The notes under the pieces are model-generated. The model worked only from the letters and a program-made list of their open reading frames with translations, was not told the DNA's origin and ran no database searches. Below are positions 514 to 50,750 of a stretch of 64,000 nucleotides of DNA, in pieces (the stretch's first letter is position 1; each line of letters starts with the position of its first letter). Where the stretch lies: assembly GCA_038087875.1 (NCBI GenBank), contig CM075988.1:8310001-8374000 (forward strand), written 5' to 3'. Position numbers and translations under genes: made by a program. The DNA is from Malacoraja senta. Taxonomy: Eukaryota.

Positions 514-516
514 TAA

Positions 517-3552: not shown

Positions 3553-3657
3553 CGGAAGGAATTGCAGATGCTGGTTTGAACCGAAGGTAGACACAACATG
3601 CAGCATCTCTGGAGAGAAGGAATCGGTGACGTTTCAGGTCGAGACCCATCTTCAGAC
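3553..3657 (-). mobile_element. PLE terminal-repeat fragment with hammerhead-like core (3628-3655)
   Basis: Minus strand reads CTGAAGA-T-GGGT-CTCG-ACCT-GAAAC-GTC-ACC. Confidence 0.7.
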
Positions 3658-3749
3658 ATTTGTCACTGTTGATATGAGCAGCTAACCTGCAAGCAGAGAG
3701 ATATCACAAATTCTAATGCAAACTGGGATATCAGTTATTGATTGGAAAA

Positions 3750-3975
3750 TAACTATTGATCAGGACTCTGGGGATCTCGCCTTCTCCTCTTCAAAGTAGT
3801 TTGACGGGGGGTTTCTGAGAGAGCAGAGAGCACCTCCCTCAGCCAGCACCCCAAAGGCAGCAACTCTGTTGATCTTGCTGACAGCGTAAACCTAGATTCT
3901 TGTGCTGAAATCTTCAACCTGACTAATTCCAACTGACACAGAGGCGAGAGTGCGATTTACTGCACCTCAGGTGAC
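3750..3975 (-). mobile_element. Ancient DeuSINE (SacSINE/AmnSINE-like) remnant
   Basis: cctagattcttgtgctgaaatc...ctgacacagaggcgagagtgc resembles the reverse complement of the DeuSINE head as I recall it. It is heavily decayed. Confidence 0.45.
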
Positions 3976-6879
3976 ATTATAATTAATGTGCTTCACACAG
4001 CAACATTATTTCAACATAGTGTAGTTGTAAGTTGCATGTTATAGAAATAATAGGCAATTCTGTTCCTCAGTCTTGTTACGCTAAGCAATTAGATTGTGAC
4101 TAATCTCTGTCTCAACTTCATTTCCCTGTCTTTGTCTCATACCTCTTAATAGCATTAGGCAATAAAATCCTATTGATTCCAATGTTGAAAATAATGGATC
4201 GGCATTCACTTAACTTTGCTGCTACATAATTTGGCTCCATAATAAGTTCTCCAATTAAAATACTGTGTGCTCAGGTTTTAGAAACCCCACCCGATAAAAT
4301 ACTTTCAACCATTTTGAATTCCTGAATGATTTAAGATGCTTCATGTTTGATCATTCTCATTGACATCCTAGCTATTTTATGGAACCTGTTCTTATAATTA
4401 ATCTCCTTTGTGCCCATTATAATTTTGTGAATCTGTGCTATAACCCCAGCCCAGCTCAATATATCATCCTTGAGGTTCAGTAGCTAAAATTAAACGCATT
4501 TCTGTACAATAGATGAAATCTAGCAAATTATTTAGACAGGGGTCACTTCCTAATGTTGGGACTCCAATCTGCTTAGAATAAAGGTTGGTATTCTACTCTG
4601 AAAACAGAACAAACTGGAAACACCCAGCAGGGTCAGTCAGCATATGTGGAGAGAGAGAGAGTGCAATGTATAACATTAGCTCTCTTTCTATTCCTGCAGA
4701 TGCCGCCTGACCTGCTTCTGAATGTTTCCCTATTTTCGGCTTATTATTTCAAATTTCAACATGGACAGTTTTTTAAATTTCCATTTTAATTATCTGTGTG
4801 CCTTTTCTAAATATATGTTGTTCCTGTGCAGTTGCTTTTAGTTAAATCTTTGAGCATCTCACCATGAAATAAGTGTTCCAATTTTCCTTTCCAATGCACA
4901 AAGTGAAAGACCTCACTTCCCACATTGAAGTCCATCTGCCATAGATTTGTTTGCCCGCATAAGACTGTCTATGGTTTCTTTGTAACTTCCTGATCCTACA
5001 TTTTAGAGATTCCTAACAGAGTCAGCTGAAAAATTAGGATACACAACTCTCTATTCATTTATCTGATTCATTATAGTTTTATGGTGAGAAGTTGCTGTTC
5101 CAGAACAGATTTAATTATGGTGTCAGTGTCTTTCATCAGAGTCAAGTGACAGGACACTTATACAAGCATCAGCTGATCAAAGAAATTCAGCTCTAATGAA
5201 GGTTTGATCATGTCTGCCTAATCTTATTTAAAGTTTTGAGGTTATTAGCTTGGGGATTACTGGAGCGTCCTCTGAATGTTACCAATGTAGACATACTGAC
5301 ATTATAAGGTTCCACGTGAGAGATTATTAGTAAAAATTGGAATGCATTGAATTGGAGGCAGTCTTGAGATACGACTTGTCCATTAGTTGTATAGAAGGGA
5401 TTAGAAAGTACAAATAATAGGTTTGTCTCATAATTATGGATATGGCAAGCGGTACCTAGCACTTTTCCCAATTGGATGTTATCAATAAACCCTTCACTTT
5501 GTGAAATGACTTGGTCTTGTGAGACTGGGAGATTGTTACACTCTTCTTATTCAATCAATATTCCAGGTCTGCTTGACAGTGGTATGAGGGAACTAGACTG
5601 TCCAGGGGGGGGGGGGGGGGGAATCAGGGCTGGTAAGACAAGGGAGGGGGTGACCTTGGCAGAGTTGCTCCGTTGATGGAAGTTGGCTACAGATCTGAAT
5701 GAAACAGGTGGCATAACTTTGCAATTACGCCACTGGTGACAGAGAACCAGCAGAGAATATTCCCCTTGCTCATTATCAGTGGGTCCGGCAGATCCAGAAG
5801 ATATGATGTGGTACAACAGCTGGTGTGAGGGCACCCTGACTCGAGCGCCAAGAGATTTTCCGAGCACATCGCTTTTGTCTTCAAACATGACAGCCTGTTC
5901 TGGGGGGCATTTAGATGAACCCAATCAATACTCTGTTTCAGAAAATGACAAGCAAACAATGAGGTGACTGACTCAAATGTCTGCTTTCACTGGGTAGACG
6001 AGATAGGGGTGGAAATAATACCCACAGCACAGAGGTTTGTAGTTGTAATCCAACTTCCTCGATCTGTGCGTACATCGACAATTGGAAACATGGAGCAGAA
6101 CATAACTGTTAATTACTATTAACTGTAAATGTTAACACTGTTAGTTCACAGGTAGGGGACCACACTCAGGTCAGTTTGCAAGTTCTATGACCATTTCCTA
6201 TCATAAATAGTTGGTTGTAACAAGTTAAATTTTATACCCTACGTTAATAACACTGGATAAGATTAATTATAAGGTTGGGGGGAATGGGTTACATCAGTGC
6301 AAGTATACCAGTTGGAAAAGATTATAATGACACAGAAGGATGCCATTTAGACCTTTGTGTCTATGCTGGATGCTAGAGGAACAATCCTAATTCCCTGTGC
6401 CTCAAACTCACACATATCCGCCAAATCCCCTTGCGATTCTTTTCGTCATTACCTTACGTTAAGGGTAATTTTCCATAATTTACACTGGCCATTTAACCTG
6501 TCAGCACATCTTTGGGATGTGGGAGGAAGCCGGAGCTCCCGATGGAAAACACAAGCGGTCACGGGGAGAACATGCAAATTGCAGACAGGCAGCACCCGAG
6601 GTCAGGATCGAAACCAGGTCGCTTCAGCTGTAAATTAACACCCATGACTACTGAGCCACCTTGCTGCCATTTAGGTGAAGTAAAAGATGTCCCAGGTGTG
6701 ATCGTGATCCCTGAGTTGCAATGCAGTGATCATTGCACAAAATTAACTATGTCAGGAAAAGCTGACAGTATTCAACTTCCATTTAAATATTTTGATGCGG
6801 AAAGGAAAGTGAAACCACAAGCCTGATTATATTAGCCTTTTTGTGGTCATTTCCAATGGGAACCACTTACTATCCTCCG

Positions 6880-7367
6880 AGGTAGACACAAAATGCTGGA
6901 GTAACTCAGCGGGTCAGGCAGCATCTCTGGAGAGAAGGAATGGGTGACCTTTCGGGTCGAGACCTTTCTTCAGACTGATGTTAGTGTAGGGGTCGGGACA
7001 AAGATAGAATGTAGTTGGAGACAGTAAGACTAGTGGCAGAATTGGGAAGGGGGTGGGGATAGAGGGGGAAAGCAAGAGATATCTGAAGTTGGAGAAGTCA
7101 ATGTTCATACCGCTGGGGTGTAAATTCCCCAAGCGAAATATGAGGTGCTGTTCCTCCAATTTGCGCTGGGCCTCACTCTGACAATGGAGGCGGCCCAGGA
7201 CAAAAAGGTCAGATTGGGAATGGGAGGGAGAGTTTGAAGTGCTGAGCAACCGGGCGATCAGGTAGGTTAAGACGGACTGAGCGGAAGTGTTCTGCGAAAT
7301 GATCGCCGAACCTGCGCTTGGTTTCGCCGATGTAAAGAAGTTGACACCTGGAACAGCGGATACAGTT
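6880..7367 (-). mobile_element. Penelope-like element 3' part: GIY-YIG tail plus terminal repeat with hammerhead-like motif (6946-6973)
   Basis: ORF SNSPSHSQSDLFVLGRLHCQSEAQRKLEEQHLIFRLGNLHPSGMNIDFSNF, followed downstream by CTGAAGAAAGGTCTCGACCCGAAAGGTC. This directly links the short module to the PLE ORF. Confidence 0.88.
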
Positions 7368-7387
7368 ACAATCCTCCAACTTTACTT

Positions 7388-8017
7388 AAGACTTTAGACT
7401 TTAGAGATACAGCGCGGAAACAGGCCCTTTGGCCCACCGAGTTCATGCCGACCAGCGATCCCCTTACGCTAACATTATTCTACGCACACTATGGTCAATT
7501 TACAATTTTTTTACCAAAGCCAATTAATCTACAAACATAAGAGAGACACAAAATGCTGGAGTAACTCAGCGGGACAGGCAGCATCTCTGGATAGAAGGAA
7601 TGGGTGATGTTTTGGATCGAGACCCTTCTTCACACTTCAACCTACAAACCTGTACATCTTTGGATTGTGGGAGGAAAACGGAGCACCCAGAGAAAACCGA
7701 CGCAGGTCACGGGGAGAACGTACAAAACTCCGTACAGACAGCACCCGTAGTCAGGTTCGAACCCTGGTCCTCTGGCGCTGCAAGGCAGCAACTCTAGCGC
7801 TGCGCCACCGTGCCGCCCAATTTTTCACCAAAGCCAATTAAACTACAAACCTGTACGTCTTTCGAAAGTGGAAGGAAACCGGAGCTCCCAGAGAAAGCCC
7901 ACGTGGTCACAGGGAGAATGTGCAAACTCCGTAGAGACAGCACCCGTAGTCAGGATCAACCCCGGGTCTCTGGCGCTGTAAGGCAACAACTCCACTGCTG
8001 TCCCATTGTGTTGCCCC
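7388..8017 (-). mobile_element. Two HE1-like V-SINE copies; the first is interrupted by a PLE fragment (~7540-7637)
   Basis: On minus: tRNA-like head GGGCGGCACGGTGGCGCAGCG, V-domain GAGTTTTGTACGTTCTCCCCGTGACC, and tail GGGCCTGTTTCCGCGCTGTATCTCTAAA. Confidence 0.85.
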
Positions 8018-8989
8018 TGCTAGTTACATGGAACTACAGATGTGGGATTCTGGAGCAAAAAACTAAAACTGCTGGAGTAACTCAGTGGGTCAGGCAGTAT
8101 CTGAGAAGACCATGGATAGGCGATGTTTCGACGACCTGAAAAAGTCACCTATCCATGTTCTCCAGTTGATGCTGCCTGACCCGCTGAGTTACTCCGGCCC
8201 TTTTTTTTTACTATCCTTTGCGCATGTGTTAGCTTCATGTCTGCATGTTAAACGGGACAGTCAGAGACCAGTTGGAGGTTGGATATTGGCACCACCACTT
8301 GACTTGCCACTGAGCATAGGTGGGTCACATCCACTTCATATCTGATCCCCCTGCTTTTCCACCAGCAAGGGATGTCACAAGAATTACAGCATTGATCCTA
8401 GAGTAATTTAGTTTAGCTGAGAGATACAGCTTGGAAACTGGCCCTTCGGAAATTATGAACATGAGCATGTTATTCAAACGGTGAAAGATTGTAGGTTTCT
8501 GAGATGCAGGGGAATCTGGGGGTCCAATTGCAGGCTTTGAAAAATGGCAAATATAAGTACCATTAGGAAAGCCAACACAATATCATTGCTTACTGATAGA
8601 GCATTGAGAATAAAAGTGGAGAGGATATCCTCAGTGGGAAGGGATGGGGATGGGAAGACGTGACTGGCAGTGGGATCATGTTGACGATGGGGGAAATGTC
8701 GGAAATTGATGAAACAGATGCAGAGGCTGGTGGGGTGAACAGCAAGGGCTGTTAGTAAGAGCTGAACAATGGGATACAGAGAAGATGCGGTTGAGGGACC
8801 CATCTATGACAGCAGGGAACGGGGAAACCAAGTTTCAATGATCTTACTGAATAGAATGTGGATTCATGCAGCCAAGATGCCTACCCATACTCCAAATGCA
8901 ATATTCAGATTTTTCCTCCTTTGCACTTTTCAAACAGTGACTGCACCTCCAAAGTTCTTCATTGGTTATTTGAATATTTGGATGTTTAG

Positions 8990-11065: not shown

Positions 11066-11283
11066 TTAAAGTGCAGAGACAAGGAACTTCAGATGCTGGA
11101 ATATTTTTTAAAAAGCCCCAAAGTGCCGGAGTAACAGCGAGTCAGGCTGCAAGATGGACACAAAGCAGTGGAGTAACTCAGCACAAGATGGAGGTGAGAA
11201 AAGACCAGGACCAAACAGGGACAGCAACAAATGACCTCAGGCAGGGCGGTACCTGGTATGTCCATTGTTAGCTAAGGAAGGCG

Positions 11284-11483: not shown

Positions 11484-12189
11484 TGGACTATGGTCGTATA
11501 TATCAACATGGCTTCCCTCTAGGCAGGCACGCTTTCACCAGAGGGAAGACCCATCCTCTTGTTCCCTGCAGAGGCAACTATTCCAATAATTTAGTGGCCA
11601 CATTCCATTCTCCATCTCATATAAACCTCTGCCCTCTCACATCCTAATGTAAAACACCTTGCTCAGTGGCCAACTGTGAGTTTAGCTTCTGGAATGCCTC
11701 AAATCTAAATGTTCTGATTTGTGTTTAAGTGAGTCATGTCTCCCTTTCCTGCCACAAAATCCTTGGGAATTTTGTATCTTTCCAGTTTGGGCTTCTTGCT
11801 TTTCCCTACCTTCCTTCCAAACTGCTGTTTGCTGTGTATTTGAATGGCTAGCCCTATGCTCCAAAACTCTTCCTGTAAGCTTCTGGTCCTCTCTATTTCT
11901 TTCTCTTCCACTGAAACCTATTTCCCTAACCCCTGCTGTTGATCATCTGCCTTATATTACTTCCTTAAGCATGCCCTGGCCCCAACCCGAAACATTGTCT
12001 GTCCATTTCTTCCATAGATGCTGCCTGATATAAACAAGCTGAGTTCCTCCAGCACATTGTGTATTGGCCCTTTATCAAAGCTTGTTGGAAAAAAAAGTGA
12101 TGTGCTGCGGGGAGCAACTACATAATAGGGTTTGTTATTGTTCACTGCTAATATTATAAGGCACCAGTTACCATGCCAGCCATTTCATC

Positions 12190-12620
12190 TTCACCTGGAG
12201 GAACAGCACCTCATATTTTGTTTGGGCAGCTTACAACCCAGTGGTATGAACACTGAATTCTCGAAGTTCAAGTAACTCCTGCATTCCCTCCGCTCCCTCT
12301 CTCCCCCCCCCCCCTCCCCTCCCTCCTCCACCCTAGTATTGCTCGCAGTTCCACTATTTGCATCCTTGTACCCCTCTCGTTTGCAAGTCTTCCCCAGCCA
12401 GCAATGGTCCATTATGGACTCCACCCTTTCTGAAGTCACCTGTTGCCAGCCCTGGTTTGTTCTGGACTTTTCTCAACTCCAGTTTTTCTCCCCACACACC
12501 CCTCCCCCACATCTCAATCTATCGGTCTGATGAAGGGTTCCGACCCGAATCGTCACCTATTCCTTTACTCCAGAGATGCTGCCCGGCCCGCTGAGTTACT
12601 CAGGGCTTTTGGTGCCTATC
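12190..12620 (+). mobile_element. Penelope-like element 3' part (GIY-YIG tail plus terminal repeat)
   Basis: ctggaggaacagcacctcatattttgtttgggcagcttacaacccagtggtatgaac encodes LEEQHLIFCLGSLQPSGMN and is followed by the terminal-repeat module. Confidence 0.85.
12521..12560 (+). ncRNA. Type I hammerhead-ribozyme-like motif in a PLE terminal repeat (core variant GAAU)
   Basis: AUCGGU-CUGAUGA-A-GGGU-UCCG-ACCC-GAAU-CGUC-ACCUAU. Stem I pairs 5 of 6, stem II is 4 bp, CUGAUGA is canonical. A15.1 is mutated, so it is probably inactive. Confidence 0.6.
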
Positions 12621-15616: not shown

Positions 15617-15744
15617 GTTTAAGAAGGAACTGCAGATGCTGTAAAATCGAAGGTAGACAAAAATGCTGGAGAAACTCAGCGGGTGAGGCAGCATCTATTG
15701 AGCGAAGGAAATAGGCAACGTTTCGGGCCGAAACCCTTCTTCAG
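15617..15744 (-). mobile_element. PLE terminal-repeat fragment with intact minimal hammerhead core (15717-15744)
   Basis: Minus strand reads CUGAAGA-A-GGGU-UUCG-GCCC-GAAAC-GUU, with a palindromic AACGUU stem III. The 5' stem-I strand is truncated. Confidence 0.75.
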
Positions 15745-19275: not shown

Positions 19276-19499
19276 AGGTGTAATCAGAGGTGGCATTGAG
19301 GTACCAAATGGAAGGTCCTGAACTATCTCCACACCCACTGGTCAACATCCCCAATACCTGTGAATATGGATAGAAGACATCTTATGACTTTCTCACTTCA
19401 CTGGGTTCTTGACCAGATTTACTCGCGAGTTTTGCTTTCTATCCACCAATTTAAAGATTGATAGGTTGATATGCAAAGATGACGATTTATTTCTTTTAA

Positions 19500-19710
19500 A
19501 AAGACACAAATTGCCAAGGTAACTCAGTGAGTCAGGCAGCATCCTTAAAGAACATGGATAGCTGACGATTCGGGTTGAGACCCTTCTTCAGACCCAACCC
19601 GAAATGTCACCTATCCATGTTCTCCAAGAATGCTGCCTGACTTGCCTGCCTGGAATACTCCAGCACTTAGTGTCTTGTTTTAAACAAGCATCTGCACTTC
19701 TTTATTTCTC
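19500..19710. mobile_element. PLE terminal-repeat fold-back (inverted pair)
   Basis: gagtcaggcagcatcc...cgggttgagacccttcttcaga followed by cccgaaatgtcacctatccatgttctcc...gctgcctgac. Confidence 0.7.
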
Positions 19711-20169: not shown

Positions 20170-20526
<357 letters not shown>

Positions 20527-26355: not shown

Positions 26356-26879
26356 CATTTTTGTGGGAAATTATCAGAAATGTATCGAGATGAATCATCT
26401 ATCTTTTTTTTTAAATTCTCCCCACATTCCCATCAACTCCCCGGTTTCTACACACACTTACATACAAGGGCCAGTTTACCTACTCATGCCCCCAACCTGC
26501 ATGTCTTTCTGGGTTGGGAGTAAACTGGAGCACTTGGAGGAAACCCTTGCGGGGAACAAGGAATACGTGCAAACTCCACAAAGACAGCATCCAATGTCGG
26601 TCTTGAGAAGGGTCCTGAACCGAAACATCATCTGTCCATTTGCTGGCTAGTGTCTGTACTGATGCTGTCTTACCAGCTGAGTTCTTGCAGCATTTAGTTC
26701 TTTGCCCAAGGTCAGCAGTAAATCTAGATCTCTGACACAGTGAGGTAGCAGTTCTGCACCACTATGTGGGCCCGTGTTGTAGACTGATATTTTTAAGCTT
26801 TTTAATTGTTATATCAATTAATTGTGCCTCGCTTCTGTATTTCCATCTCTATTGGCCCAACAAACTCTTTCTCTGATAC

Positions 26880-27701: not shown

Positions 27702-28975
<1,274 letters not shown>

Positions 28976-35132: not shown

Positions 35133-36234
35133 CAAGTGTGTACTGGCTAAATACATATCATCTGAAGATATTTTATGGATTATGTGTTCTTTATACCTTT
35201 CACATTGACTATATTCAAGTTTACATGAAGCTAATAGAAATTACTTACAATTACTGGCCTGTTGTTTTGACATTTGTCAGAGCACTTTAGACTTTAGAGA
35301 TCATAAGGTCATCAGGTCATAAGTGATAGGAACAGAATTAGGCCATTCGGCCCATTAAATCTACTCCGCCATTCAATCATGGCTGATCTATTTCTCCCTC
35401 CTAACCCCATTCTCCAGCCTTCTCCCCATAACCCCTGACACCTGTACTAATCAAAAATCTATCTATCTCTGCTTTAACATGCTCTGCTGTCACAGCTTAG
35501 AAGCAGGCCCTTCGCCCCACCAACTGGTGATTCCCCCCGTGCACTGACACTATCCTACACACTATGGACAATTTACAATTTTACCAAAGCCAGTTGACCT
35601 GTACATCTTTGGAGTGCGGGGGGAATCCGGAGCACCTACCCGGAGAAAACCCACTCGGTCATAGGGAGAATGTACAAACTCCGTTTCGACAATGCCCGTA
35701 GTTGGGATTGAACCCGGGTACCTGGCGCTGAATGGCAGCAGCTCTACTGCTGTGCCACAGTGCTACCCGCTAAACTTACGTCCAACCTACCTAAGAAAGT
35801 TACCTCCATTTTTTTTTTTTCCTACGTAGCTTATGGCCAGAAAAGTTGAGATATACACCACAAGGGGCCTAAGCAATATCTGAATGATGGTCGTATCCAC
35901 CAGGAGATATCTAGTGTAACCTTTAACATGTTTAGTCTCCCTCATGCTCAGTGCCTCATCTATGCTCAAATAATAATATCAGCAGGGTCTTCTTGCAGTG
36001 ATATCACAATCAAACGGAGGGTGCACCTATTGTGCTGAGGTGTGTAACATGCCACCATCAGTGGGGTCTATTTTCCCAGTGACAACACATTTTCATCATT
36101 GGAACCTACCTACAGCCATCAGGCGATTAAACACAACAACCTCCAAATAGGCTCTGAACTACATAGACAGGGGCATTATTTTGACTTTGTACTATTATTG
36201 TTTGCTTTATGTATATATATATATATATACATGT

Positions 36235-36262
36235 CTGAAGAAAGGTCTCGACCTGAAACGTC
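36235..36262 (+). ncRNA. Minimal hammerhead-like core in a short PLE fragment
   Basis: CUGAAGA-A-AGGU-CUCG-ACCU-GAAAC-GUC. The fragment sits between two (TA)n tracts. Confidence 0.55.
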
Positions 36263-36317
36263 ACCTATTCCTCAGCTGACCCGCTGAGTTACTCCAGCTC
36301 TTTGTCTATCTTTCTTT

Positions 36318-36356
<39 letters not shown>

Positions 36357-37299: not shown

Positions 37300-38460
37300 G
37301 GTTCATAGTACAGAACATAGTACATAGTAGGTACATAGGCCCTTTGTCTTCATTCATCTATGCTGACCAAGATGCCTACCTAACTAATTCAATTTTCCTT
37401 CATTCGCCCTTACCCCTTCGAACCTTACCTATCCATGTTCCTGACCAAATGTCTTTAAAAATCGTACATTATTTTTGCATATATTACCTCCTCTGGCAGT
37501 TCTTGCCAATATTCCCATCGCCCACTGTGTGAAAATCTTGCCCCAGAGATCTTCTTTAAATGTTTTCCCCCTCCCCTTCGCCTCTTGCCTTCTAGTTATG
37601 GACTCCTCTATCTACTGTATCTATGTCTCTCATAATATTATATACTTCTATTAGGTCATCGATCCGCCTCCTTTGCACTGGGAAAAAAGTCCCAGCTAAT
37701 CTAATCTCTCCTTATAACTCTGCCCTCCAAACCAGGTAATATTCTTGTGAATCTTTGCTGCACTCTCTATGGATTAATCGCATAGCTCCGATAGTGTGGC
37801 AACCACATACAATAGTCCAAGTGTAGTGCGACCAATGTTTTATACAACTGTAACATGAAGTCCAATTTCTGTCCTCAATGCCATAGCCGATGAAGAAATG
37901 ATGATGTCATATGCCTTCACTATATTCTGTCTACCTGTGTCACCATTCTCAGGGCAGTACGTACTTGCACCCCAAGGTCTTGCATTTCAGTAACAGTTCC
38001 CAGGGATAGACACAAAATGCTGGAGAAACTCAACAGATCAGGCAGCATCTCCAGATAGAAGGATTGGGGTGACGTTTCGTCTCCCATTCCCTCGATCCAG
38101 AGATGCTGCCTGACCTGTTGAGCTTCTCCAGCATTTTGTGTCAATCTTCGGTGTAAACAAGCATCTGCTGCTTCCCACACAGACCCTGTCAGTCACTGTG
38201 TTTGTTCTGGCCAGGTTTAACTTACCAAAATTCATCACTTCACACTTGCCTGAGTTAAATTCCATCAGCCAGTTCCCAATTTCCTCAGTTAATCTACATC
38301 CTGTTGTAACCTTGGACAACCTTCTTCACTCCACTATACCACTATTTTGGCATTGTTTGTTAACTTACTAATCATCCCATCCACATTCGCTACCAATCCA
38401 TATATGCTGAATACTAAATGACCCAGCACCGATCCCAGCAGCACCCCAGCTGCTGGGATC
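37300..38460 (-). mobile_element. Older CR1 LINE fragment with a nested PLE fold-back (~38005-38180)
   Basis: Minus WLMEFNSGKCEVMNFG and QDLGVQVRTALRMVTQVDR are CR1 RT C-terminal motifs. Confidence 0.8.
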
Positions 38461-38929
38461 GATACAGCTTTCAATCTGAAAAAACAACACGATGTTGCAT
38501 AGAAGGCACAGAGTGCCAGAGTTACTCAGTGGGTCAGGAAGCATCTCAGAAAAACATGGATAGCAACGTTTTGGTTCGAGATTCTTCCTTGTTCCTCCAC
38601 TACCATTCTCTACCTCCTTACATACTCCAAAGACAGATGAGTTTACAGGTTAAATGCCCACTATAAATCGGCCATTGTAAATTGCTCCTACATATGCAGG
38701 TGAATGGAGCAATCTGGGGGCAGTTGATGAGAGTATGGGAGAGAACATATTGGGATTAGCAGAATAATGTAAATGGGTGGTAGATCACCAGGTAGAAACA
38801 AGGAACTCCAGATGCTCATTTACAAGAAGAGTCGGGACCCATCTGAACAAGCGTCCTGACCCAAAACATCACCCATCCATGTTGCCTGACCCGCATTTTG
38901 TGTCTTTTAAAAAAATTGATCATCTGTGC

Positions 38930-39223: not shown

Positions 39224-40159
39224 CGGCTCTGTGGGCTGAAGGGCCTGTCATTTTGTAAAAGAGTCCAAAATACAACTCTGGTTAGCCCAGAACTCAGTCA
39301 TTAAGCAACTAATCGGCCAGTGGCAAATTAATTAAATGCACCTTGATTTTCCCTGGTCTATATTTCTATTTTAAGAGAAACACCTTGGTACAGAGGGATG
39401 TGTGGAGTGGAATCGCACCTGAGACTCCTCACTAACCTTCATCACTTCTATTGGTACAGTGGACTTGATTGCTTTTAATTCAGTCAGTTGTTCCTCAGTG
39501 TTGGTTTACATCCCCGCACGACCGTGGTATAATCCTCAGGGAAATTAGCAAAATCACAAAGGCAACTGCTTGTAATTCTATAGCCATTTGCAGACAGAGG
39601 GATTAGTGTGATGGCTCAGAAGCAGCAAGGGCTGCAGCATAATTGTGCAATTAGGATTTTGTTAGCAGAATGCAAATACCTTTTGGCAAATGTTTACCAA
39701 GATCTCAGGGAGTCAGTTACTGAAAGGGAAATCTGATATGCTGAGAGATAATAGCCAAATTCACGACCACATGACAATGGTCACCGTGCTTCAAAGTAAA
39801 TCATTGCATCAATTTTGCAAAGGTACTGAGAGATGTCAAAAGAAGCCACATAAATAAAAGTCTTTCTCTTGAATAGATATAGATTTCACATCCGGGACAG
39901 CTTTATCCTCAGACAACGTCACTACGACAGATTAGCCTATTATTTACCCCAGTGTTGTGGCACACATTTTTTGCTGCATTATTTTCTAAATCAATGGCAA
40001 TCCCATCAAACATACCTCATTAGCTAATAGGCAAATATGGACACCTGGATCTCAATCTGAAATATCACCTATCCATGTTCTCCGGAGGTGCTGCCTGACC
40101 TGTTGAGTTACTCCAGCACATTTTTGTGTCCTGTTTTGAACATTGATGTTTTTTCGATT

Positions 40160-40703: not shown

Positions 40704-42039
40704 GCTAAAGAGTACAGTGTAAATGCCACAGATGGCTGTGCAAACGGACATGGGGTCTTTTTCAAAGCGGAGATTGACAGGTTCTTGATTTATAAGGATG
40801 TCAAAAGGTCACGGGGAGAAGGCTGGAGAATGGGGCTGAGAAGGAGAAATAGATCTGCCATGATCGAATGGTGGAGCAGACTCGAAGGGCCAAATGGCCC
40901 AATTCTTCTCCTATGTCTTATGATCTTATTCATCTCCCTTCACAAGAACCCAGATGCTTCCAGTCCATTTGAATGGAATGATGATCAAAGTATTTTGAAG
41001 CAATTTAAACAAGAGAGGCCAGTCAGTGGCTGGAATCAATCCTGATGCCTCCACAAAGACACACATGTGCACGTATGTGTGATTGCTCCTCTGATTTTGA
41101 ACAGACTTAGGATCAGACTTGGGATAAATGCCAGAGAAAAACAGCTGAAAACCATTCCTCTAATTCTCTGGTAACTGTTAGAAATTCTATTCAGTTATGA
41201 TGATGGGCATTTACTATATTTTTCCGTATGTGGACTCATATACGGTTGATCTATGCTCGAGTAACACTATATAACTGAACTCGTCTGCATCTGCTTGCAA
41301 GAGATACCAGCATATTTGTGGTGTCCAATGTTTTGTGCTCGAAAAATGATTTACATTTCAAAGGATCTTTTTAAGGATTGGAAACGATTCCAGATAAAAG
41401 TACCATATTTAAATGAGACAAGAAAAATAGTAATTATCTTCTACAAACGTCCCAGAGTTCCACCCTCTGCTGCTAATAACATATAAAGCGTATTAGCAGT
41501 CAGTGAAAGTGATAGGAAACAATGAGATCTGACTTATCTAACAGTTAAGAGTCAGAACGCTGAGAGTCGGATAAAGTGATAGTTGACAATCCATTTGTCG
41601 ATTGATAAATGCAACTAATTTTTCCAAACCACAATGATCATTTAACAATTCAAAACAGAATGCTCTAAACACCATCAATAGAAAATAGGTGCAGGAGTAG
41701 GCCATTCAGCCCTTTGAGGGTGAATAGCAAGGGCAAGAAATGACTGTGGCAATGCAATGTTCACAAATTTCAGAACTGATAGATATTGGGAACAGAGGCA
41801 CAAGGAACTGCAGATGCTGGTTTACACAAAAAAGACACAAAGTGCTGGAGTAACTCAGTGGGTCAGGCAGCATCTCTAGAGAAAATGGATAGGTGATGTT
41901 TCGGGACCCTTCATCAGATCTTTCTTCAGGTTGGGAACTGGTCAGTTTTTAAGACAAGGAATGTTTGCTTTGAGGAGGCTGGTAATGATGCAGGGAAAGG
42001 AAAAGGATATGAGAATAGAGAACCAACCAGGTCTGGGAG

Positions 42040-42245
42040 CAGATACAAAGTGCTGGAGTAATTCAGCGGGTCAGGCAGCACCTCCAAAGAGAAAGGATGG
42101 GTAACGCTTCTTCTGAAGAAGGGTTCTGACCCGAAACATCACCGATATTTTTTTCCTCCAGAGATGCTGCCTGAACCGCTGAGTTACTCCTGCACTTTGT
42201 GTCTATCTTCGGTAAAAATCAGCATCTGCAGTTCTTTGCTACACA
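42040..42245. mobile_element. PLE terminal-repeat fold-back with central hammerhead-like motif (42113-42140)
   Basis: Inverted arms flank ctgaagaagggttctgacccgaaacatc. Confidence 0.75.
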
Positions 42246-42419
42246 GCTATGGGGGCAGTTGTTCGCTGGACTGGGAGAGCAGGAGTGAGCCGCCTCGACA
42301 AGATGGGCTCTGAGGGGATAGAGAGGACAGAGGTTGGAACAAGAAGCCTGAGATCGGAAAGGTTCAGAAGTCAACAAAGGAGAGACAAGATAATGAGGAG
42401 GCAGGGGAGGCTAGAATAT

Positions 42420-44340
42420 TAGCAATCCATCAGTATCTTTAAAACAGACAGGAACAACTTTTGAAATCTGTAAAAAGAAAAGATTAACAGAAGTTGACTA
42501 GTGGACTGGGACTGGAGATATTATATTTGGGAATAAAGAAATACCAGGACAATCAAACAATTATTTTGTGTCTGACTCAATTGAAGAGGAGGAAACCTCC
42601 AGAAATACAGGTCTAGAGTGCACACAGAATTGAAGGAAATTAGCATTTGTAACAAAAACTATTTTTGAAAAATAAGTAATGTTCCCACGGTTGGGGGTTC
42701 TGTAACCCAAGATTTTAGCAATGGAAATACTGATCATCATTTTCCAGAATTGCATAGATTTTAAAATGGTCCCCACTGACTGGGAAGCAGCAAATGTAGC
42801 CCGACAATAAACAGGCAAAGAATGAACATTGGGAATTACGGACTGATTAGTCTTACATCTGTGATTGGAAAAATCCTGGAATCGATTATTAAGAAAGTGG
42901 GAACAGGACATTTATATATGTAAATCATGCTTAATACACCTGTTTGATTTATATGTGTAGGAAGGAACTGTAAATGCTGGTTTGCACCAAAGATGGATAC
43001 AAAAAAGCTGGAGTACCACAGTGGGTCAGGCAGCATCTCTGGAAAAAGGTGACATTTTGACCCGAAGCGTCATCTATTTATTTTCTCCAGAGATGCTGCC
43101 TGATCAGCTGGGTTACTCTAATATTTTTAGTCTATGTTTGATTGAACCAGAGTATGTGATGTATTAAAACTTTCAGCAGGCTTTTGTTCAGGTGACACAA
43201 GAGGTTATTAAACAAAAATAGAGAACATAGGATTTTGAGGTAAGATTAATGGACGTAAAACAGATTGGGAATAAATGGGCCATTTTGAAGTTGGGATGCC
43301 ATAGGGATTGGTGTTGGGGACCCAGCTGTTCAGAAACTATATCAATAATTGGACGAGGAGAACAATTGTGATATGTCCAACTTTGCGGATGATACAAATC
43401 ATCAGTGTGACTTGTGAGAAGGATCGAGAGAGGCAGCAGAGGTTGATAGGCTAAGTGAATAGGGCAGATGGAATAGAGTGGGGAAACAAATACAAGGTCA
43501 TGATCATTGGTAGAAGAAATAGAATAGCAGATGAGGGATTGAAATGATGAAGGATTGAAGTCCATCATTGTTTGATAGAGGGACTGCAGCCCTTGCACTT
43601 GTTTTAACTGCGTTGTCTCTGTAGATGTGTATTATATTGTACCTTGTTTATTTTCTCTTTTGTACTACCTGATGGACTCATGTACGGTACTATTTGCTTG
43701 AATAGCACGTAAAAAAACCCAAGTTTTTCACTGCATCTCGTTAGGCATAATCATTGTAAACTATTGCACATAAATGTTGGCTTTAAGAAGGATCTCTTAC
43801 AAAAAAAACCCTGAAAATTCACATGCAGGCACATTTAGCAAATAGGAAGGTAAATTGTATGAGGATCTGAATTATGTAGAGCCTTATAAAATACATCCTC
43901 CCTCCCCTTTCAGCTATCACCTGCATCCATGCAGAGCTCATGGACATTATTTACTTCACTACTAACTTCCACCCTGTCCTCAAATTCATCAGGACTATCT
44001 CAGACACCTTCCTACCCTTTCAGCAATGGACTCCAAAACTATATCTGGATTATGTATATGTGTCTGGTCTCTGTACCTCAGGAGTTATATACTTGAGATA
44101 CAGGAAATGTGGTAAAGGTCACTAGATTGATTTCAGGGGTTGGGAGGTGTAGGGTATGTCCAATGGGGAAGATTATCAGACTGGGCCTATACTTTCTAGA
44201 GTTTAGAAGAATAAGAAGTAATCCCAGTGAAGCATATAACATTCTTATAGATTTGACAGGGTGAGGCAGGTATGACGTTTCCCCTGGTTTATGGAGCAGA
44301 GATAACAGTCTCAAAGTAAACACTCAGCCATTCAGGAATG
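42420..44340 (+). mobile_element. Long decayed CR1 LINE (RT region to 3' end) with nested inserts
   Basis: Decayed CR1 motifs: VPTDWEAANV, GNYGLISLTSVIGKILESII, MSNFADDT, LGLYFLEFRRI. Confidence 0.7.
43925..44050 (+). mobile_element. Penelope-like RT fragment
   Basis: ELMDIIYFTTNFHPVLKFIRTISDTFLPF matches the PLE RT motif N..HP.(L/I)KFT......LPFLD. Confidence 0.7.
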
Positions 44341-45066
44341 GAATAAGACCGATCAGTCTGAAGAAGGGTCCCAACCGGAAACATCGCTAATCTACATTCT
44401 CCAGAGATGTGGCCTGACCTGCTGAGTTACTCTAGCACTGAGTGTCCTTTATAGCATTTACCATGTTTAGCTTAATTTTTTCAATACTATGTAAAAACCT
44501 CATTCCCATCTGAAGGTTTATCGATCTTTTTCTGTTTCCATCTTGGTGACGCGGAAGACAAAACCAGGGCTTTGCATCTCACTGAAACTGAAAGTTGCAG
44601 AAAGCAACTTTAGTTGCTGAACATGTAGAAAAAAAACCATCAACATCTTCAGTCCCCTGTGGCCAGAGAGAGAGAAAGCAGCTTCATTTGAGGCAACATG
44701 GCATTAAAGTGAGGTACGACAGTGGGTCAGGCAGCATCACTGGAGAAAAGGAATAGGTGATGTTTTTTCTTAAGACTTCTGCAGTCTGAAGAAGGGCATT
44801 GACCCGAAACATCACCTATTCATTTTCTCCAAAGGTGCTGCCTAACCCACTGAGCTACTCCAGCTTTTTGTGTCTATCTTTGGTGTAAACCAGCTTCTGA
44901 AATTCCTTCCTACACACTAAACTGTCGGACCAATTTCAATGATTCTGAAAGATTTTACAATCGTGAATGAACGCCCAGGATTTGGTCTGGAGCCTTAGCC
45001 AGCTGAATCAGACAGTAGGTAGTTCTTCCAATTAGCTGTCTATGGGACGGTTGCCTGTTATGTCTT

Positions 45067-45267
45067 TAAGAAAGACTGCAGATGCTGGAAAATCCCAGGT
45101 AGACAAAAATGCTGGAGAAACTCAGCGGGTGCAGCAGCATCTATGGAGCGAAGGAAATAGGCAACGTTTCGGGCCTGAAGGAGGGTTTCGGCCCGAAACG
45201 TTGCCTATTTCCTTCGCTCCATAGATGCTGCTGCACCCGCTGAGTTTCTCCAGCATTTTTGTGTACC
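45067..45267. mobile_element. PLE-derived fold-back element with a 15-bp TSD
   Basis: Near-perfect inverted arms (ggtagacaaaaatgctgg...acgtttcgggcc / ggcccgaaacgt...catttttgtgtacc). The direct repeat tgcctgttatgtctt lies at 45052-45066 and 45268-45282. Confidence 0.88.
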
Positions 45268-45694
45268 TGCCTGTTATGTCTTCATATAGGGAGTTCGACT
45301 GTGCCAAAGCAAACTATTAATTTTTGGAGCATCTTGGGCATTCTGAGGATGTAGAGGATGTAATATAAAGTCAAGTTCTTTCCCAGTTTCATTAAGATAT
45401 TGCAGTTTGCAACGTGAGTTTATTTCTGACAATGATTTGACGTGAAATGTTGACTGTTTCTTGTCCTACTGATGTGCCCAGACCTGTTGAGTATTTCAGA
45501 ATGTTTTGTTTTTATTTATGACTTCTCGTTTGCCCAAATGAAAACAGGAGCCATCCAAGATTATTCTTTTTTTTTTTAAATTATGGAACAAAGATTCAGA
45601 GAGATGTGTAGGAAGGAACTGGTTGAGACCGAAGATAGAGACAAAAAGCTGGAGTAACACTGCGACTCTAGCAGCATCTCTGGAGAAAAGGAAT

Positions 45695-45730
45695 AGGTGA
45701 CGTTTCGGGTTGAGACCCTTCTTCAGACCC
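45695..45730 (-). ncRNA. Best-preserved minimal type I hammerhead-like motif
   Basis: Minus strand GGGU-CUGAAGA-A-GGGU-CUCA-ACCC-GAAAC-GUC-ACCU has an intact core, 4-bp stem II, 4-bp stem I (one G:U) and a GUC cleavage triplet. Confidence 0.65.
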
Positions 45731-46881
45731 TCTTCAGAGGGATATGGATCAAACATGGTAAAGTGGGACTAGTGTAGATGGGCATCTAGGTCACCTGGCA
45801 TGGATAGGGTCGATGGGCCTATGTTGTAGGACTATGACGCTTTCTACAAGCTGTGACACTGAGCGTCATAAATTCAGTGAGTCTGTCTTTGTGAAAATTA
45901 TGAAAAAAAATTCTGCTTAAAAATCAGGAAACTATTCCCCTAGGACTGGTTTCTTCCTTCTCACCAAGCATGTTCAGTATTACTTTGATCCACATAAAAA
46001 CAAAAAAACCCACCCTTTAAGTTTAATGAGCATGTCTGTGGAGCTGGTTGTGGCTTTATTTAGTGTAAAAATTCACAGGAATTAGCCATCCTCTCACAGA
46101 ATACCAGATCAGTCAGTGTGGAAGGCAGCACTGACATTGACAGATGCATCTTTTTAGAAGCAGAACACAAAAAAAATCAGAAATAAATGGGAGCTATTTA
46201 TTCAATAAAATGGCCAGACATTCCTGGCTTGTGGCCAGATGGGTATCATTTGCTCATTCTGCTGTCTAAAAATACTACCTTTTATCGAGTGATGTACTGC
46301 AATGTACACATGAGCCACTGAGATCTCTGTGATGTGAGGAACACTTAATCAAATGGAAGGTTTGTAATATGCGCAAACACAATTAAATTCATTACACATG
46401 CAGTGACCATCACTTGTACATTCAATTTGCAATTATTCCATGTGTACATTAATCAACGTGTACGACTGTAATTCAGACCCGTTCACCCATCAACTCTCGG
46501 CTCGATGCTCTATGCTGGCATACAATGCAAAGATACTCAACTATCAGCTTCTCATCCTTATTTTTAAATCCCTCCATTAATTTACTCCTTTCATTCTGCA
46601 ACATCCTTGAACCGTACTCCCCCTCGGCAAGCTCCTGCAATTCCCCCATCCCAATCATCCCTGAATTTAATCACTCCATTACTGGAGCCATAGATAAACT
46701 TAACTCGCAGAGCCTCCACTTCCCCTGTCCTTCAATGTCCTTCAAATTCTATCAGTCTGAAGAAGTGTCCCATCCCGAAACGTCATCTGTCCATTTCTCT
46801 CCACACATGCTGCCTGACCTGCTGAATTCACCCAGCACTTTGTTTTTTTGCTCAAGATTCCAGCATCTACCATCTCTTTAA

Positions 46882-47516
46882 AGGCCTGTCTCACGAGTCT
46901 GCGGTCATTGGCGGTGATACAGGAAGTATCTACCGCTCGTGGACCGCCAGAGACCGCGGGTTCGGTCAAACGCACACCGCCGGGGCCGTGCGGCGTTTGT
47001 CCCAACACCGCACGGTGCTCAGAAAAAGTCAGCAATGTCCAAAAATAATTTCTTACCGCACAGCCGCCGCCAGTGAGGCACGAGTGCGGCACGGTCACCG
47101 CCACAGCCGCCGCCAGTGCGGCACGAGTGCGGCACGGTCACCGCCACAGCCGCCGCCAGTGAGGCACGAGTGCGGCACGGTCACCGCCACAGCCGCCGCC
47201 AGTGCGGCACGAGCGCCGTAAGTCGAACTCTCACCGCCACAGCCTCCGCCAGTGAGGCACGTGTGCGGCACGGGCGCCGCCACAGCGCCGCGATCAGCAC
47301 TACCGCCGCCACAGCCCCGCTTGTCTTTTATAAAGCAAATTTCTATAACACCGCAAGCTCGTGGGACCGGCCGTACTGAGATCACTCGACCCCGCGCAGC
47401 ATCCGTGCGGCGCTCCCGCGGCATAGGCTCGGCGCTCTCGTGGTTGACGTGCGGTCCCCTCTTCCGGCGACGCCGCGCTTCACCGCCAATGACCGCAACA
47501 CCGTGAGACAGAGCCT
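46882..47516. mobile_element. PIF/Harbinger-type MITE, family D (635 bp, very GC-rich)
   Basis: Termini AGGCCTGTCTCACGAGTCTGCGGTCATTGGCGGTGA and TCACCGCCAATGACCGCAACACCGTGAGACAGAGCCT. TAA TSD at 46879-81 and 47517-19. Confidence 0.82.
47059..47315 (+). repeat. 43-bp minisatellite inside MITE D
   Basis: Unit cacagccgccgccagtg(a/c)ggcacgagtgcggcacggtcaccgc starts at 47059, 47102, 47145 and 47188, then degenerates. Confidence 0.95.
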
Positions 47517-48272: not shown

Positions 48273-49039
48273 GAACACTGTGAATTGGGTACATATGTGC
48301 ATAATTCCTTGAGAGCGGTAGGACGTGTTCAGAAAGAGATTAGTAAAGCTTGTAAGACACTAGGAATGTCCCAGAAGGTTTGAGAAATAAGAATAAAAAA
48401 GAAGTAAGGTTATAGTTGCAACATTTATGAATATTTTATCACTGCTGGGCCAATTCTGGTCACGATACTTTTTGAAGGAAGGGGAGGGCGCAGGAGAGAT
48501 TTACTGGATTAGGTCGAAGAACAAGGAATTTCAGCTGCAATGTTGGCAGGGAAATTGGAATTCTTCTCCGTGGAGCAAAGTGTTTGTGAAAAGATTTGAC
48601 AAAGGTGTAGTTCGCGGCAAGTGTCTTAACGATAGAAATTTCCCAAGACAGACACACAAGACAGACACATCAGGTCGGGCAGCATCTCTGGAGAAAAAGA
48701 ATAGGTGACATTTCAGGTTGGGAACCCTTCTGCACAAATTTCCATGAGTGGATAATGAATAGAACAGAGACCAAACATTCAAAATGTTGGGAAACAACGC
48801 AAGAACGTACAAAGAATGTACTTAGTTATGCTGAGTGATTATGATCGGGGACTCACTGACTATATGGGACGTGGAAACAGTGCCCATCAGGATTTTCCAA
48901 AGGGACAGAGACCAGTCTATAAAGAAAAAATGAGGAATAAGAACCTTCAGGGAATAATGGGAGAATGGAGTTGCATTTTTGTAAGGAACCAGCATCATGA
49001 GAATGGATCATGAGGCCTACTTCCCAAAGATTTTCGCTT

Positions 49040-49326
49040 TAATTTTAGACATACAGCATGGAAACAGGCCCTTTGGCCCACCGAGTCTTTACCGACCAAT
49101 GATCACCTGAACACTAGTTCTATCCCACGCACTAGGGTAAATTTACGGAAGCAAACCCACAAACCTGCACCCCTTTGGAATGTGGGAGGAAACTAGAGCA
49201 CCCAGAAAACTTAAGCAGTCACAGGAAGAATGTACGAGCTCCACACAGACGGCACCTGGGGTCAGGATCAAACCCAGATGTTTGGCACTGTAAAGCAGCA
49301 GCTCTACCACTGTGCCACTGTGCCAC
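49040..49326 (-). mobile_element. HE1-like V-SINE
   Basis: Tail, V-domain and head present. Confidence 0.82.
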
Positions 49327-50404
49327 CTTTTTCATTCTGTTATTTGAAAAGAAAGGAATCTCCAGCAGAGATCTCGCCAATCTTATTCCTTCAGGCAGCA
49401 CAACCAAAACAGATTATCTGAGTTATTCTGTTTGTGTGACCTAGTTTTGCAAATTGGTCAATAACTCTAACATCATTACAAATACTGTACGCATCAAAAC
49501 CATTGGCAGCAGAGACATCTTAGATTAAAGAAGCCCCTTGTAAATGTAAATGTATTTTTCACCGGTTTATATCCAAATTCACTGAGGCAAGTGATTATTT
49601 TTCACTCTGCTCAATAAACAAATGTAATGCCAGGAGCAAATTTATCGCAGGTGCTTTGCAAAGTAGAAATGGCTTAAAATATGTGCATAAGAAAAAGGTT
49701 TATGAAAGCATATAGATATGTGTGAGCGTCTTAATGAAAACCTGTGCACATGGATGTGAAAGTTTGGCCGACAGAGTCTATTTTCATTGCCTTCTTGCCC
49801 AAACCTCTCACCCATCGTTCCCCCATATTGTGCCCCATCAATGTCCTTTACTTATTCCCACGCAGACTGTCCCATCTCCAGCTCCCTGTGATGGAGTGGT
49901 AATATTTTCTACCACATACAAATAAAACGAAATGAAACTTCAATCGGGCAATTATTGGCATCATTGGTGCTGTTGCTGTCACTGTTGATGTTGTTGTTGT
50001 TGTTGTTGTTGAACCACTGTTGTGTTTATAATGTATTATTATTTGTATGATCATAATCAGAGTCAGCTTCAATGCTTTTATTGTCGCTGTTAACGCTGTT
50101 GGCACAGCTAAACTTGTTGAGTTTATAGTTTAGTTTAGTCTAGAGATACAGCGTGGAAACAGGCCCTTCGGCCCACCGAGTCCACACTTACCTTCGACAG
50201 CCCATTTACAATAATCCTACACGAGTCTAATCCGACTTTATTCTCTATATATTGCCATTAATTCATCCCAAATTCTACAGCTCACCTACACACTAAGGGC
50301 AATTTACTGCAGCCTACCAGCGATCCCTGTACACTAACGCTATCCTACACACACTACGGACAATTTACAATTTCACTGAAGCCTATTATCCTAAAAATTT
50401 ACAG

Positions 50405-50750
50405 GTATGAATATTGATTTCTCTAACGCCAAGTAACCCCGGCATTCCCTCTCTCTCTCTCTCCATCCCTCTCCACCCAAGTCGCACTCGCTTCTCGTTT
50501 TCACCCAACTAACAGCTAACAATGGCCGATTTCCTTTATCATCGTGACTTTTTTGCATATCTTTCATTCATTGTTCTTTATCTCTCTATATCATCATCTA
50601 TATCTCTCGTTTCCCTTTCCCCTGACTAGTCTGAAGAAGGATTTCGACCCAAAACGTCACCCATTACTTCTCTCCAGAGATGCTGCCTGCCCCGCTGAGT
50701 TACTCCAGCTTTTTGTGCCTATCTTCGGTTTAAACCAGCATTTGCAGTTC
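50405..50750 (+). mobile_element. PLE 3' end and terminal repeat nested in a SINE
   Basis: ggtatgaatattgatttctctaac (GMNIDFSN) through ctgaagaaggatttcgacccaaaacgtcacc...ccagcatttgcagttcc. The SINE resumes at ~50752. Confidence 0.8.

What the first reader, a model, noticed from the sequence alone, without database searches (positions are those of the whole stretch)
3553..50750. Dense population of hammerhead-ribozyme-bearing modules derived from Penelope terminal repeats
Seen: at least a dozen copies of CTGA(A/T)GA-A-[GGGT-NNNN-ACCC]-GAAAC-(G/A)T(C/T), near 3628, 6946, 12527, 15717, 19565, 24667, 36235, 41895, 42113, 44358, 44786, 45176, 45699, 46758 and 50631. In three places (6880-7367, 12190-12620, 50405-50750) the motif lies directly downstream of a GIY-YIG C-terminus. 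Established: PLE pseudo-LTRs carry minimal type I hammerheads whose tiny palindromic stem III needs dimerisation to cleave. Inference: this lineage carries a very high-copy ribozyme-bearing family, most copies lacking any ORF and resembling retrozyme-like parasites. All have an extra nucleotide (usually A) after A9 and most have a weak stem I, so activity is uncertain.
Basis: partly seen in the sequence, partly recalled or inferred. Interest (0 to 1): 0.7.

Follow-up and report, generated by a model that had tools for sequence, protein, structure and literature searches.

The report
Hammerhead-headed Penelope stubs in a skate/ray
This skate- or ray-like genome carries a short hammerhead-ribozyme-like repeat about every 1.4 kb; the copies are mostly decayed end pieces of a Penelope-like jumping gene in an already described layout, likely written directly by its enzyme from uncut RNA rather than spreading as a separate ribozyme parasite, so the finding is largely ordinary.

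Summary
The motif is real and denser than reported: 37 strong hits of a 100-140 nt module in 51 kb of unique sequence (reversed control 0). All 15 listed positions exist, but only 2 copies match the strict descriptor and 1 of 19 keeps every hammerhead element. Three copies follow a GIY-YIG end by 108-254 nt; homologues point to Neptune-type Penelope-like elements (PLEs) of a cartilaginous fish. Sixteen hits form 8 head-to-head pairs; 7 have the PLE 'tail' on one arm only. Target-site duplications and two empty sites show that one pair and one solo copy are single insertions. No tandem arrays, so not retrozymes. 36 of 37 copies start 5' of the predicted cut and none at it, so the copied RNA was likely uncut. 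The extra base after A9 is a published PLE feature, and a short stem I is the norm in 65 related motif types. Likely mechanism: reverse transcription from two internal sites, primed at one or both DNA ends, stopping at the hammerhead. No RNA data. The scan found the same thing before in at least 8 other shark/skate windows. Interest 0.3.

The parts
6879..7365 (-). 5'-truncated PLE copy: GIY-YIG C-terminal half (7364-7082, frameshifted), 108-nt linker, hammerhead C3 at 6973, tail-less end; 12-bp target-site duplication (1 mismatch) at 6867-6878 / 7366-7377
12196..12618 (+). 5'-truncated PLE copy: endonuclease end 12195-12272, 254-nt linker, C3 at 12527; 11-bp duplication 12185-12195 / 12619-12629
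50401..50761 (+). PLE end: last 11 endonuclease codons, 197-nt linker, C3 at 50631, tail; no duplication found
2466..2690 (-). endonuclease fragment of the same kind with no module behind it
45067..45267 (.). youngest head-to-head pair (arms differ at 1 of 80), tailed arm on -, tail-less arm on +, joint inside the hammerhead; exact 15-bp duplication 45052-45066 / 45268-45282; empty site in runs X3 and X5
   Evidence: (table 8, records 13 and 19)
382..515 (.). head-to-head pair, arms start at G12 and A13; tail not scorable
8023..8207 (.). head-to-head pair, joint in stem II, tail on - arm
19464..19706 (.). head-to-head pair, - arm holds the whole hammerhead and has no tail, + arm starts in loop II and has the tail
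37997..38172 (.). head-to-head pair joined at the stem III CG, tail on + arm
42039..42247 (.). head-to-head pair, + arm with whole hammerhead (C3 42113) and tail
42952..43134 (.). head-to-head pair, tail on - arm; 11-bp duplication 42941-42951 / 43135-43145
44719..44917 (.). head-to-head pair, + arm with hammerhead (C3 44786) and tail, - arm short
7537..7638 (-). solo tail-less module inserted in a dispersed SINE-like repeat; 11-bp duplication 7526-7536 / 7639-7649; other copies of the host repeat are empty at this site
15618..15744 (-). solo tailed module starting at C3; 12-bp duplication 15606-15617 / 15745-15756
45605..45742 (-). solo module; only copy with core, stem II, ACGT and a 4-pair stem I, the last owed to an 11-nt slip duplication at its 5' end; 11-bp duplication
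41799..41930 (-). solo tailed module with short 5' duplication and 5-nt stem II deletion; 10-bp candidate duplication
36231..36315 (+). solo module in a (TA)n tract (repeated at 62657 in the duplicate)
3546..3659 (-). solo module, C3 at 3655
11080..11182 (-). two abutting 3' fragments without hammerhead (second hit weak, E 0.014)
11978..12076 (+). solo module starting in stem II
24019..24128 (-). solo module, C3 at 24123
24663..24785 (+). solo module, C3 at 24667
26598..26707 (+). decayed solo module (repeated at 53041)
32675..32754 (+). decayed module with about 25 nt of linker like that of the 6973 copy (seen by eye; repeated at 59136)
38500..38587 (-). decayed solo module
38840..38923 (+). 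decayed solo module
40047..40140 (+). solo module starting in stem II
44352..44486 (+). solo module, C3 at 44358
46751..46885 (+). solo module, C3 at 46757
48634..48734 (-). decayed solo module; 10-bp candidate duplication

Best explanation
The modules are mostly decayed 3' end pieces (pLTRs) of Penelope-like retrotransposons, likely of the Neptune clade in a skate or ray, and were likely inserted one by one by the element's own endonuclease and reverse transcriptase from RNA that the hammerhead had not cut. Steps: (1, shown) insertions are flanked by 11-15 bp target-site duplications and two have empty sites; (2, shown here, mechanism from PMC11167929) they have two 3' ends about 35-40 nt apart, tail-less and tailed, matching the two internal start sites of reverse transcription found for the anole PLE; (3, shown) nearly all stop within about 30 nt at the hammerhead, 5' of its cut site; (4, inferred) the stop is the 5' end of the RNA, probably a start at the TCAGT just before C3, or a pause at the folded or protein-bound hammerhead; (5, inferred) when both cut DNA strands prime, one at each start site, the two cDNAs anneal through the short palindromes of the hammerhead and give a head-to-head pair with one tail; when one primes, a solo results; occasional priming at the downstream pLTR gives the endonuclease-linked copies. 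(6, inferred) The ribozyme was under selection in the source elements only; genomic copies decay.
For: Endonuclease fragments match proteins with C-terminal GIY-YIG; best named hit Leucoraja erinacea, 69% identity. 8 head-to-head, 0 tail-to-tail, 0 head-to-tail adjacencies among 37 hits; random placement gives mean 0.13, max 2 in 5000 runs. Repeats of 11 bp or more (1 mismatch) flank 8 of 28 units against 5.7% of random sites, p 1e-4. Contigs of organisms B and C join 45051 to 45268, lacking exactly the pair plus one duplication; other SINE copies lack the 113-nt insert at 7526-7638. Starts: 36 of 37 at or before +24 (C3 = 0, cut between +27 and +28), 0 at +25..+31, 1 at +50. One-sided tail in 7 of 8 pairs, 1 not scorable (read by eye). 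In 3 clear pairs (19464, 42952, 45067) the tailed arm is the shorter at its 5' end, which a cDNA folding back on itself cannot give. ORF-less and endonuclease-linked copies are interleaved. CpG positions of the motif are decayed in 5-12 of 26-36 copies; arms of 7 of 8 pairs differ by 11-22%. Inverted copy, tail and duplication are the published PLE layout (PMC8557442, PMC3846280); unprocessed RNA was the dominant substrate in vitro (PMC11167929).
Against: No full-length element or clear RT lies in the window (best RT-like hit E 6e-4 at 43892-44020), and the Neptune zinc-finger linker was seen only in homologues. 20 of 28 units have no flanking repeat of 11 bp or more. Only 3-4 of 37 copies reach upstream of the hammerhead, which a SINE-like master would also give. 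The tree rests on about 90 columns with low support. In D. virilis Penelope the transcript starts 46 bp upstream of a 75-bp intron whose end maps to helix I (PMC2377424, PMC4209133), so a start right at the hammerhead is not general. The core is more conserved among copies than the 3' part (12 of 265 against 168 of 1358 non-CpG mismatches, p 7e-5), which fits selection on masters but is not proof that copies are neutral; the seeds were chosen by motif, which biases it. No RNA reads were available.
Confidence: 0.8

Rival explanations
1. A separate non-autonomous, SINE-like family: a 100-140 nt unit with its own start site before the hammerhead that borrows PLE protein.
For: 33 of 37 hits share no sequence upstream of the hammerhead; TSD-defined solos start within about 5 nt of C3; density of one per 1.4 kb.
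Against: Same sequence subtypes occur with and without endonuclease; two 3' ends and 8 pairs with different joints; starts spread over 30 nt.
Confidence: 0.1
2. Retrozyme-like parasite: units cut by the hammerhead, circularised and re-inserted.
For: Motif has the type I architecture; stem covariation in other animals is strong; retrozymes are reported as pLTR derivatives, also in one chondrichthyan (10.64898/2026.07.22.740005).
Against: No arrays; no copy begins or ends at the cut site; 1 of 19 copies intact; stem II probability near 0 in 5 of 7 folded copies and stem I near 0 in 6 of 7 in the full module.
Confidence: 0.04
3. Same PLE origin, but pairs arise by self-priming (fold-back of the cDNA, or of an antisense template as proposed in PMC3846280) instead of two primings.
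For: Joints sit on palindromes (TCAG-T-CTGA, stem II, ACGT); PMC3846280 reads junction palindromes as self-priming; in 2 pairs (42039, 44719) the tailed arm is also the 5'-longer one.
Against: In 3 clear and 2 marginal pairs the tailed arm is the 5'-shorter one, so it cannot be a copy of the tail-less arm; both strands were cut and extended in vitro (PMC11167929).
Confidence: 0.15

Closest known systems
Endonuclease-positive PLE insertion units, Neptune type (PMC8557442, passages; PMC3846280, passages)
   Same: C-terminal GIY-YIG, pLTR with hammerhead, heavy 5' truncation, adjacent inverted copy head to head with palindromic joint, 30-40 bp tail on one side, target-site duplication, microsatellite target at 36231.
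   Different: Here most units are minimal (pLTR end only), very dense (about 8% of this window), and starts and joints fall at the hammerhead; I found no paper stating that link.
Minimal PLE hammerheads (min-HHR; PMC4209133, parts 1-2 of 4 read)
   Same: Type I, no real helix III, palindromic 15.2-16.2, extra base between 9 and 10.1, G10.1-C11.1, mostly solo, pairs on opposite strands noted, thousands per genome (about 4,000 coelacanth, 9,000 Xenopus).
   Different: Cartilaginous fishes are not named in the parts read (supplement not seen); stem I is 2-3 pairs and stem II 4 pairs, shorter than the Schistosoma motifs described there.
Anolis Poseidon PAc (PMC11167929, parts 1-2 of 4 read)
   Same: Two internal reverse-transcription starts that define the tail; both strands cut and extended; hammerhead cleavage not needed for insertion; ribozyme active only with protein.
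   Different: Other clade; the PAc ORF starts inside the hammerhead (CTGATGA), while most copies here have CTGAAGA without ATG.
Animal non-LTR retrozymes (10.64898/2026.07.22.740005, parts 1 and 3 of 5 and passages)
   Same: pLTR-derived, ORF-less, type I hammerhead.
   Different: Defined as tandem repeats with a hammerhead in each unit; none here.

Membership tests
EN+ Penelope-like element insertion | GIY-YIG endonuclease at the C-terminus, followed by pLTR | tested here: met
   3 fragments end 108-254 nt before the hammerhead; 57% identity, E 3e-14 to P0016, which hits GIY-YIG at E 0.004; the window piece alone is below Pfam's cut-off, E 0.081
EN+ Penelope-like element insertion | PLE reverse transcriptase ORF | tested here: inconclusive
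   no full element in window; weak hit 43892-44020, E 6e-4; homologue P0007 shows RT motifs before the same endonuclease end
EN+ Penelope-like element insertion | adjacent inverted 5'-truncated copy, head to head | tested here: met
   8 pairs, 0 tail-to-tail
EN+ Penelope-like element insertion | 30-40 bp tail on one end only | tested here: met
   7 of 8 pairs, 1 not scorable, by eye
EN+ Penelope-like element insertion | target-site duplication | tested here: met
   8 of 28 units with 11 bp or more, null 5.7%; two empty sites
Neptune (or Nematis) clade | CX2-5CxxC linker between RT and endonuclease; RT phylogeny | tested here: inconclusive
   linker present in homologues P0003, P0005, P0010, P0016, window fragments are truncated before it; no RT tree possible
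Minimal type I hammerhead | core CUGANGA / GAAA / UH with stem II and palindromic stem III | tested here: met
   met by the family majority; 10 of 19 copies keep the core, 4 of 19 also stem II and ACGT; in 65 motif types from metagenome contigs unspecified pairs 1.1-2.1 and 10.3-11.3 pair in 60 and 55, shuffles mean 29 and 28, max 39
Minimal type I hammerhead | self-cleavage as dimer or with protein | not testable with these tools
   folding only: ACGU duplex adds about -3 kcal/mol and is not the minimum-energy dimer in any of 7 copies
Non-LTR retrozyme | head-to-tail tandem units, each with a hammerhead | tested here: not met
Non-LTR retrozyme | unit ends at the cleavage site; circular RNA | tested here: not met
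   0 of 37 start at +25..+31; circular RNA not testable, no RNA run
SINE-like non-autonomous family | own clade with fixed ends, distinct from autonomous partner | tested here: inconclusive
   interleaved with endonuclease-linked copies but low support

The most novel reading that the evidence does not exclude
In these elements the hammerhead works less as a cutter than as the joint of the integration reaction: two element RNAs dimerise through its ACGU palindrome in a dimeric protein complex, each cut DNA strand primes on one RNA (tail and tail-less site), both enzymes stop at the ribozyme, and the cDNAs are joined there. Skate and ray genomes would then hold hundreds of thousands of fossil intermediates that read out the unknown second half of PLE integration and explain why PLEs keep a poorly cleaving ribozyme.
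Probability: 0.15. Interest if true: 0.65.

Novelty: new member of a known kind. Interest (0 to 1): 0.3.

Why it matters
As a ribozyme finding it is ordinary: minimal hammerheads in PLE ends and their solo copies are published. It matters modestly in two ways. The repeat covers about 8% of this window, so it is likely a major, poorly labelled repeat of skates and rays that can be mistaken for microRNA hairpins or MITEs. And the pile-up of 5' ends and head-to-head joints at the uncut hammerhead is a testable clue to PLE integration and to the open question of what PLE hammerheads are for.

Tried and rejected
Rfam scan: no hammerhead model hit; miRNA hits are hairpins or microsatellites below gathering score. 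No whole genome is held, so no genome-wide census. Viral contigs: 0 matches. The 122 metagenome loci share the hammerhead only; the window's module HMM finds no 3' part in them. Sequencing runs: no RNA holder listed; X23 turned out 'probably DNA' and all runs were contigs, so expression, splicing, RNA ends and circles are untested; no GT..AG joint was among the 15 of 39 joints shown. Summed contig depth over modules (1e5-1e7 against 50-90 in unique bins of X1, 408,186 contigs laid) fits a very high copy number but is not a count. Loose ends at 45728 and 50628 mix true 5' ends with linker variants and were not used. Host gene: a 112-nt exon-like stretch gave no hit in PDB, Pfam or the Atlas. 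Lunse et al. (PMC5785218) is not held; I saw only its reference and a review's summary. Supplement 2 of PMC11167929 is an image; supplements of PMC4209133 and of the bioRxiv preprint were not seen and may already list chondrichthyan motifs. Rejected: MITE (ends are PLE 3' ends, joints differ), recombination solo-LTRs (duplications and empty site flank bare modules), hammerhead cleavage as the source of 5' ends (none at the cut).
Full report
Observation. A loose scan and a mismatch scan recover the motif at all 15 positions given. An HMM built from 16 window copies finds 45 hits of a module of about 100-140 nt that begins with the hammerhead and runs on through a conserved 3' part; the reversed window gives none. 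Four hits lie in a 99.7% duplicate of 25284-37572 behind an N gap and were left out; 37 of the other 41 have E<1e-5, and the 41 cover 4068 of 51326 bases on both strands equally. Of 19 copies scored, 10 keep the core, 4 also keep stem II and the ACGT palindrome, 1 (45726-) also has 3 or more stem I pairs. Rfam has no matching hammerhead model.

Source. Four endonuclease fragments lie in the window; three end 108, 254 and 197 nt before a hammerhead, with linkers that do not align. A search with 2463-2642 returned 20 proteins of 37 candidates, the best named one from Leucoraja erinacea at 69%; four of the eight read carry a CX4CxxC linker before the endonuclease and one carries RT motifs before the same C-terminus. 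By the clade definitions in PMC8557442 (passages) this points to Neptune (or Nematis); Naiads are excluded by the C-terminal position and the hammerhead. The host is therefore likely a skate or ray; no genome is held.

Anatomy. Sixteen hits form 8 head-to-head pairs, with no tail-to-tail or head-to-tail neighbours (random placement gives at most 2). Every joint is different and lies between the stem I 5' strand and C15.2, often on a short palindrome. Copies end either about 62-70 nt behind the cut site or 35-40 nt further on (tail); 7 of 8 pairs have the tail on one arm only (by eye). Flanking repeats of 11 bp or more occur at 8 of 28 units against 5.7% of random sites. The youngest pair (arms differ at 1 of 80) has an exact 15-bp duplication, and single contigs of organisms B and C run from 45051 straight to 45268 (records 13 and 19): the pair is one insertion. 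A solo module sits in a SINE-like repeat whose other copies are empty at that site. Neighbouring modules at 42111, 42952 and 44352 are overlapped by contigs of organisms B, C and D that differ by about 4%, so they are older.

Where copies start. 36 of 37 start at or before +24 (C3 = 0), none at +25..+31 around the cut, one at +50 (the model begins at -8, and 3-4 copies run further upstream). Solos bounded by duplications start within about 5 nt of C3. Had the ribozyme made the template's 5' end, copies would start at +28 and lack the core. So the template was likely uncut, as found in vitro for the anole element, where cleavage needed protein, was not needed for insertion, and no RNA-seq reads ended at the site (PMC11167929, parts 1-2).

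Is the hammerhead real? As a family motif, yes. A metagenome scan with the core pattern gave 122 loci (scan cut at 13 of 64 parts, 80 with full flanks) that share nothing else with the module. Among 65 distinct types, pairs not specified in the pattern hold in 60, 56, 42 (stem I 1-3) and 55, 46 (stem II 3-4) against shuffle means of 24-29 and maxima of 35-39, with all four Watson-Crick types at pair 1.1; position 17 is G in only 4 (related sequences inflate this). 26 of 122 loci hit PLE proteins. So the extra base and the short stem I are the standard PLE form, as PMC4209133 describes (parts 1-2). In the window, core positions differ from the majority at 12 of 265 non-CpG cells against 168 of 1358 in the 3' part; this fits selection on source elements but is biased by motif-chosen seeds. 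Individual copies show CpG decay and mostly do not fold as hammerheads: stem II probability near 0 in 5 of 7, the ACGU duplex worth about -3 kcal/mol, and pairs fold into long hairpins of -67 to -169 kcal/mol that bury the 3' half of the motif.

Mechanism. Shown: insertion scars, two 3' ends, stop at the uncut hammerhead, decay. Established: PLE protein nicks and extends both strands and starts reverse transcription at two internal sites that bound the tail (PMC11167929); inverted copies, one-sided tails and palindromic head-to-head joints are the usual PLE layout (PMC8557442; PMC3846280, passages, which reads the palindromes as self-priming on an antisense template). Inferred: priming in the upstream pLTR yields a short cDNA that runs to the RNA's 5' end or stalls at the hammerhead; one priming gives a solo, two give a pair joined by microhomology. 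In 19464, 42952 and 45067 the tailed arm is clearly the 5'-shorter one, which fold-back of one cDNA cannot produce; in 42039 and 44719 it is the longer. TCAGT before C3 resembles an initiator (recalled); against it, D. virilis Penelope starts 46 bp upstream of an intron that ends at helix I (PMC2377424, passages; PMC4209133). I put the RNA-end reading at roughly one half, pausing at one third.

Retrozyme reading. Animal retrozymes are tandem arrays with a hammerhead per unit (10.64898/2026.07.22.740005, parts 1 and 3 and passages). None is here, and endonuclease-linked copies are interleaved with ORF-less ones (weak support). RNA could not be examined.

Novelty and verdict. A new member of a known kind. 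Eight searches listed no paper on this family in cartilaginous fishes or on joints at the hammerhead, but subscription papers and supplements were not visible. My reading was written, which showed 8 earlier notes of this scan on other shark and skate DNA with the same conclusion; they are not independent evidence. Interest 0.3: ordinary as a ribozyme, useful as a fossil record of PLE integration.

Noticed in passing
25284-37572 and 51727-64000: 12.3-kb duplicate, 99.7% identical, starting right after a 200-N gap; likely an assembly duplicate, depth not tested.
   Followed up: partly
36821-36932 (+), repeated near 63250: 112-nt open stretch between a strong acceptor and a GT donor; probable exon of an unidentified host gene (no hit in PDB, Pfam, Atlas).
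   Followed up: partly
12273-12526, 50434-50630, 6974-7081: Linkers between endonuclease end and hammerhead begin near GTAAC (two copies) and end in CTRAC...AG|T before C3 (two copies, and the loose-end consensus): intron-like ends at the position where the D. virilis intron ends. No RNA to test.
   Followed up: partly
45713-45738 and 41917-41929: Short tandem duplications of the first 11-12 hammerhead bases at the 5' end of two solos, like template slips at the end of copying.
   Followed up: no
3655-, 6973-, 15744-, 36235+, 50631+: The purine-rich core pairs with the pyrimidine tract behind the cut site in predicted folds, blocking the hammerhead fold; could be a built-in off state.
   Followed up: partly
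L002, L019, L024, L027, L038, L056, L061, L080, L081, L085, L118: Unrelated families from other animals also have an inverted arm joined within about 30 nt of the hammerhead (13 of 118 matches); 26 of 122 loci hit PLE proteins, 22 with the hit upstream on the same strand.
   Followed up: partly
16144-16644 (-), 29787-30083 (+), 32069-32455 (-): LINE-like protein fragments (CR1/L2 type by recall; no Pfam hit for the first two).
   Followed up: no
7380-7700, 9090-9180, 16840-16920, 22690-22770, 26980-27070, 34900-34990, 35560-35640: Many copies of a SINE-like repeat (resembles elasmobranch HE1 by recall, not tested).
   Followed up: partly
47055-47291: GC-rich 43-nt tandem repeat inside an element with GGCCTGTC-type ends, probably a DNA-transposon derivative (by eye).
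   Followed up: no
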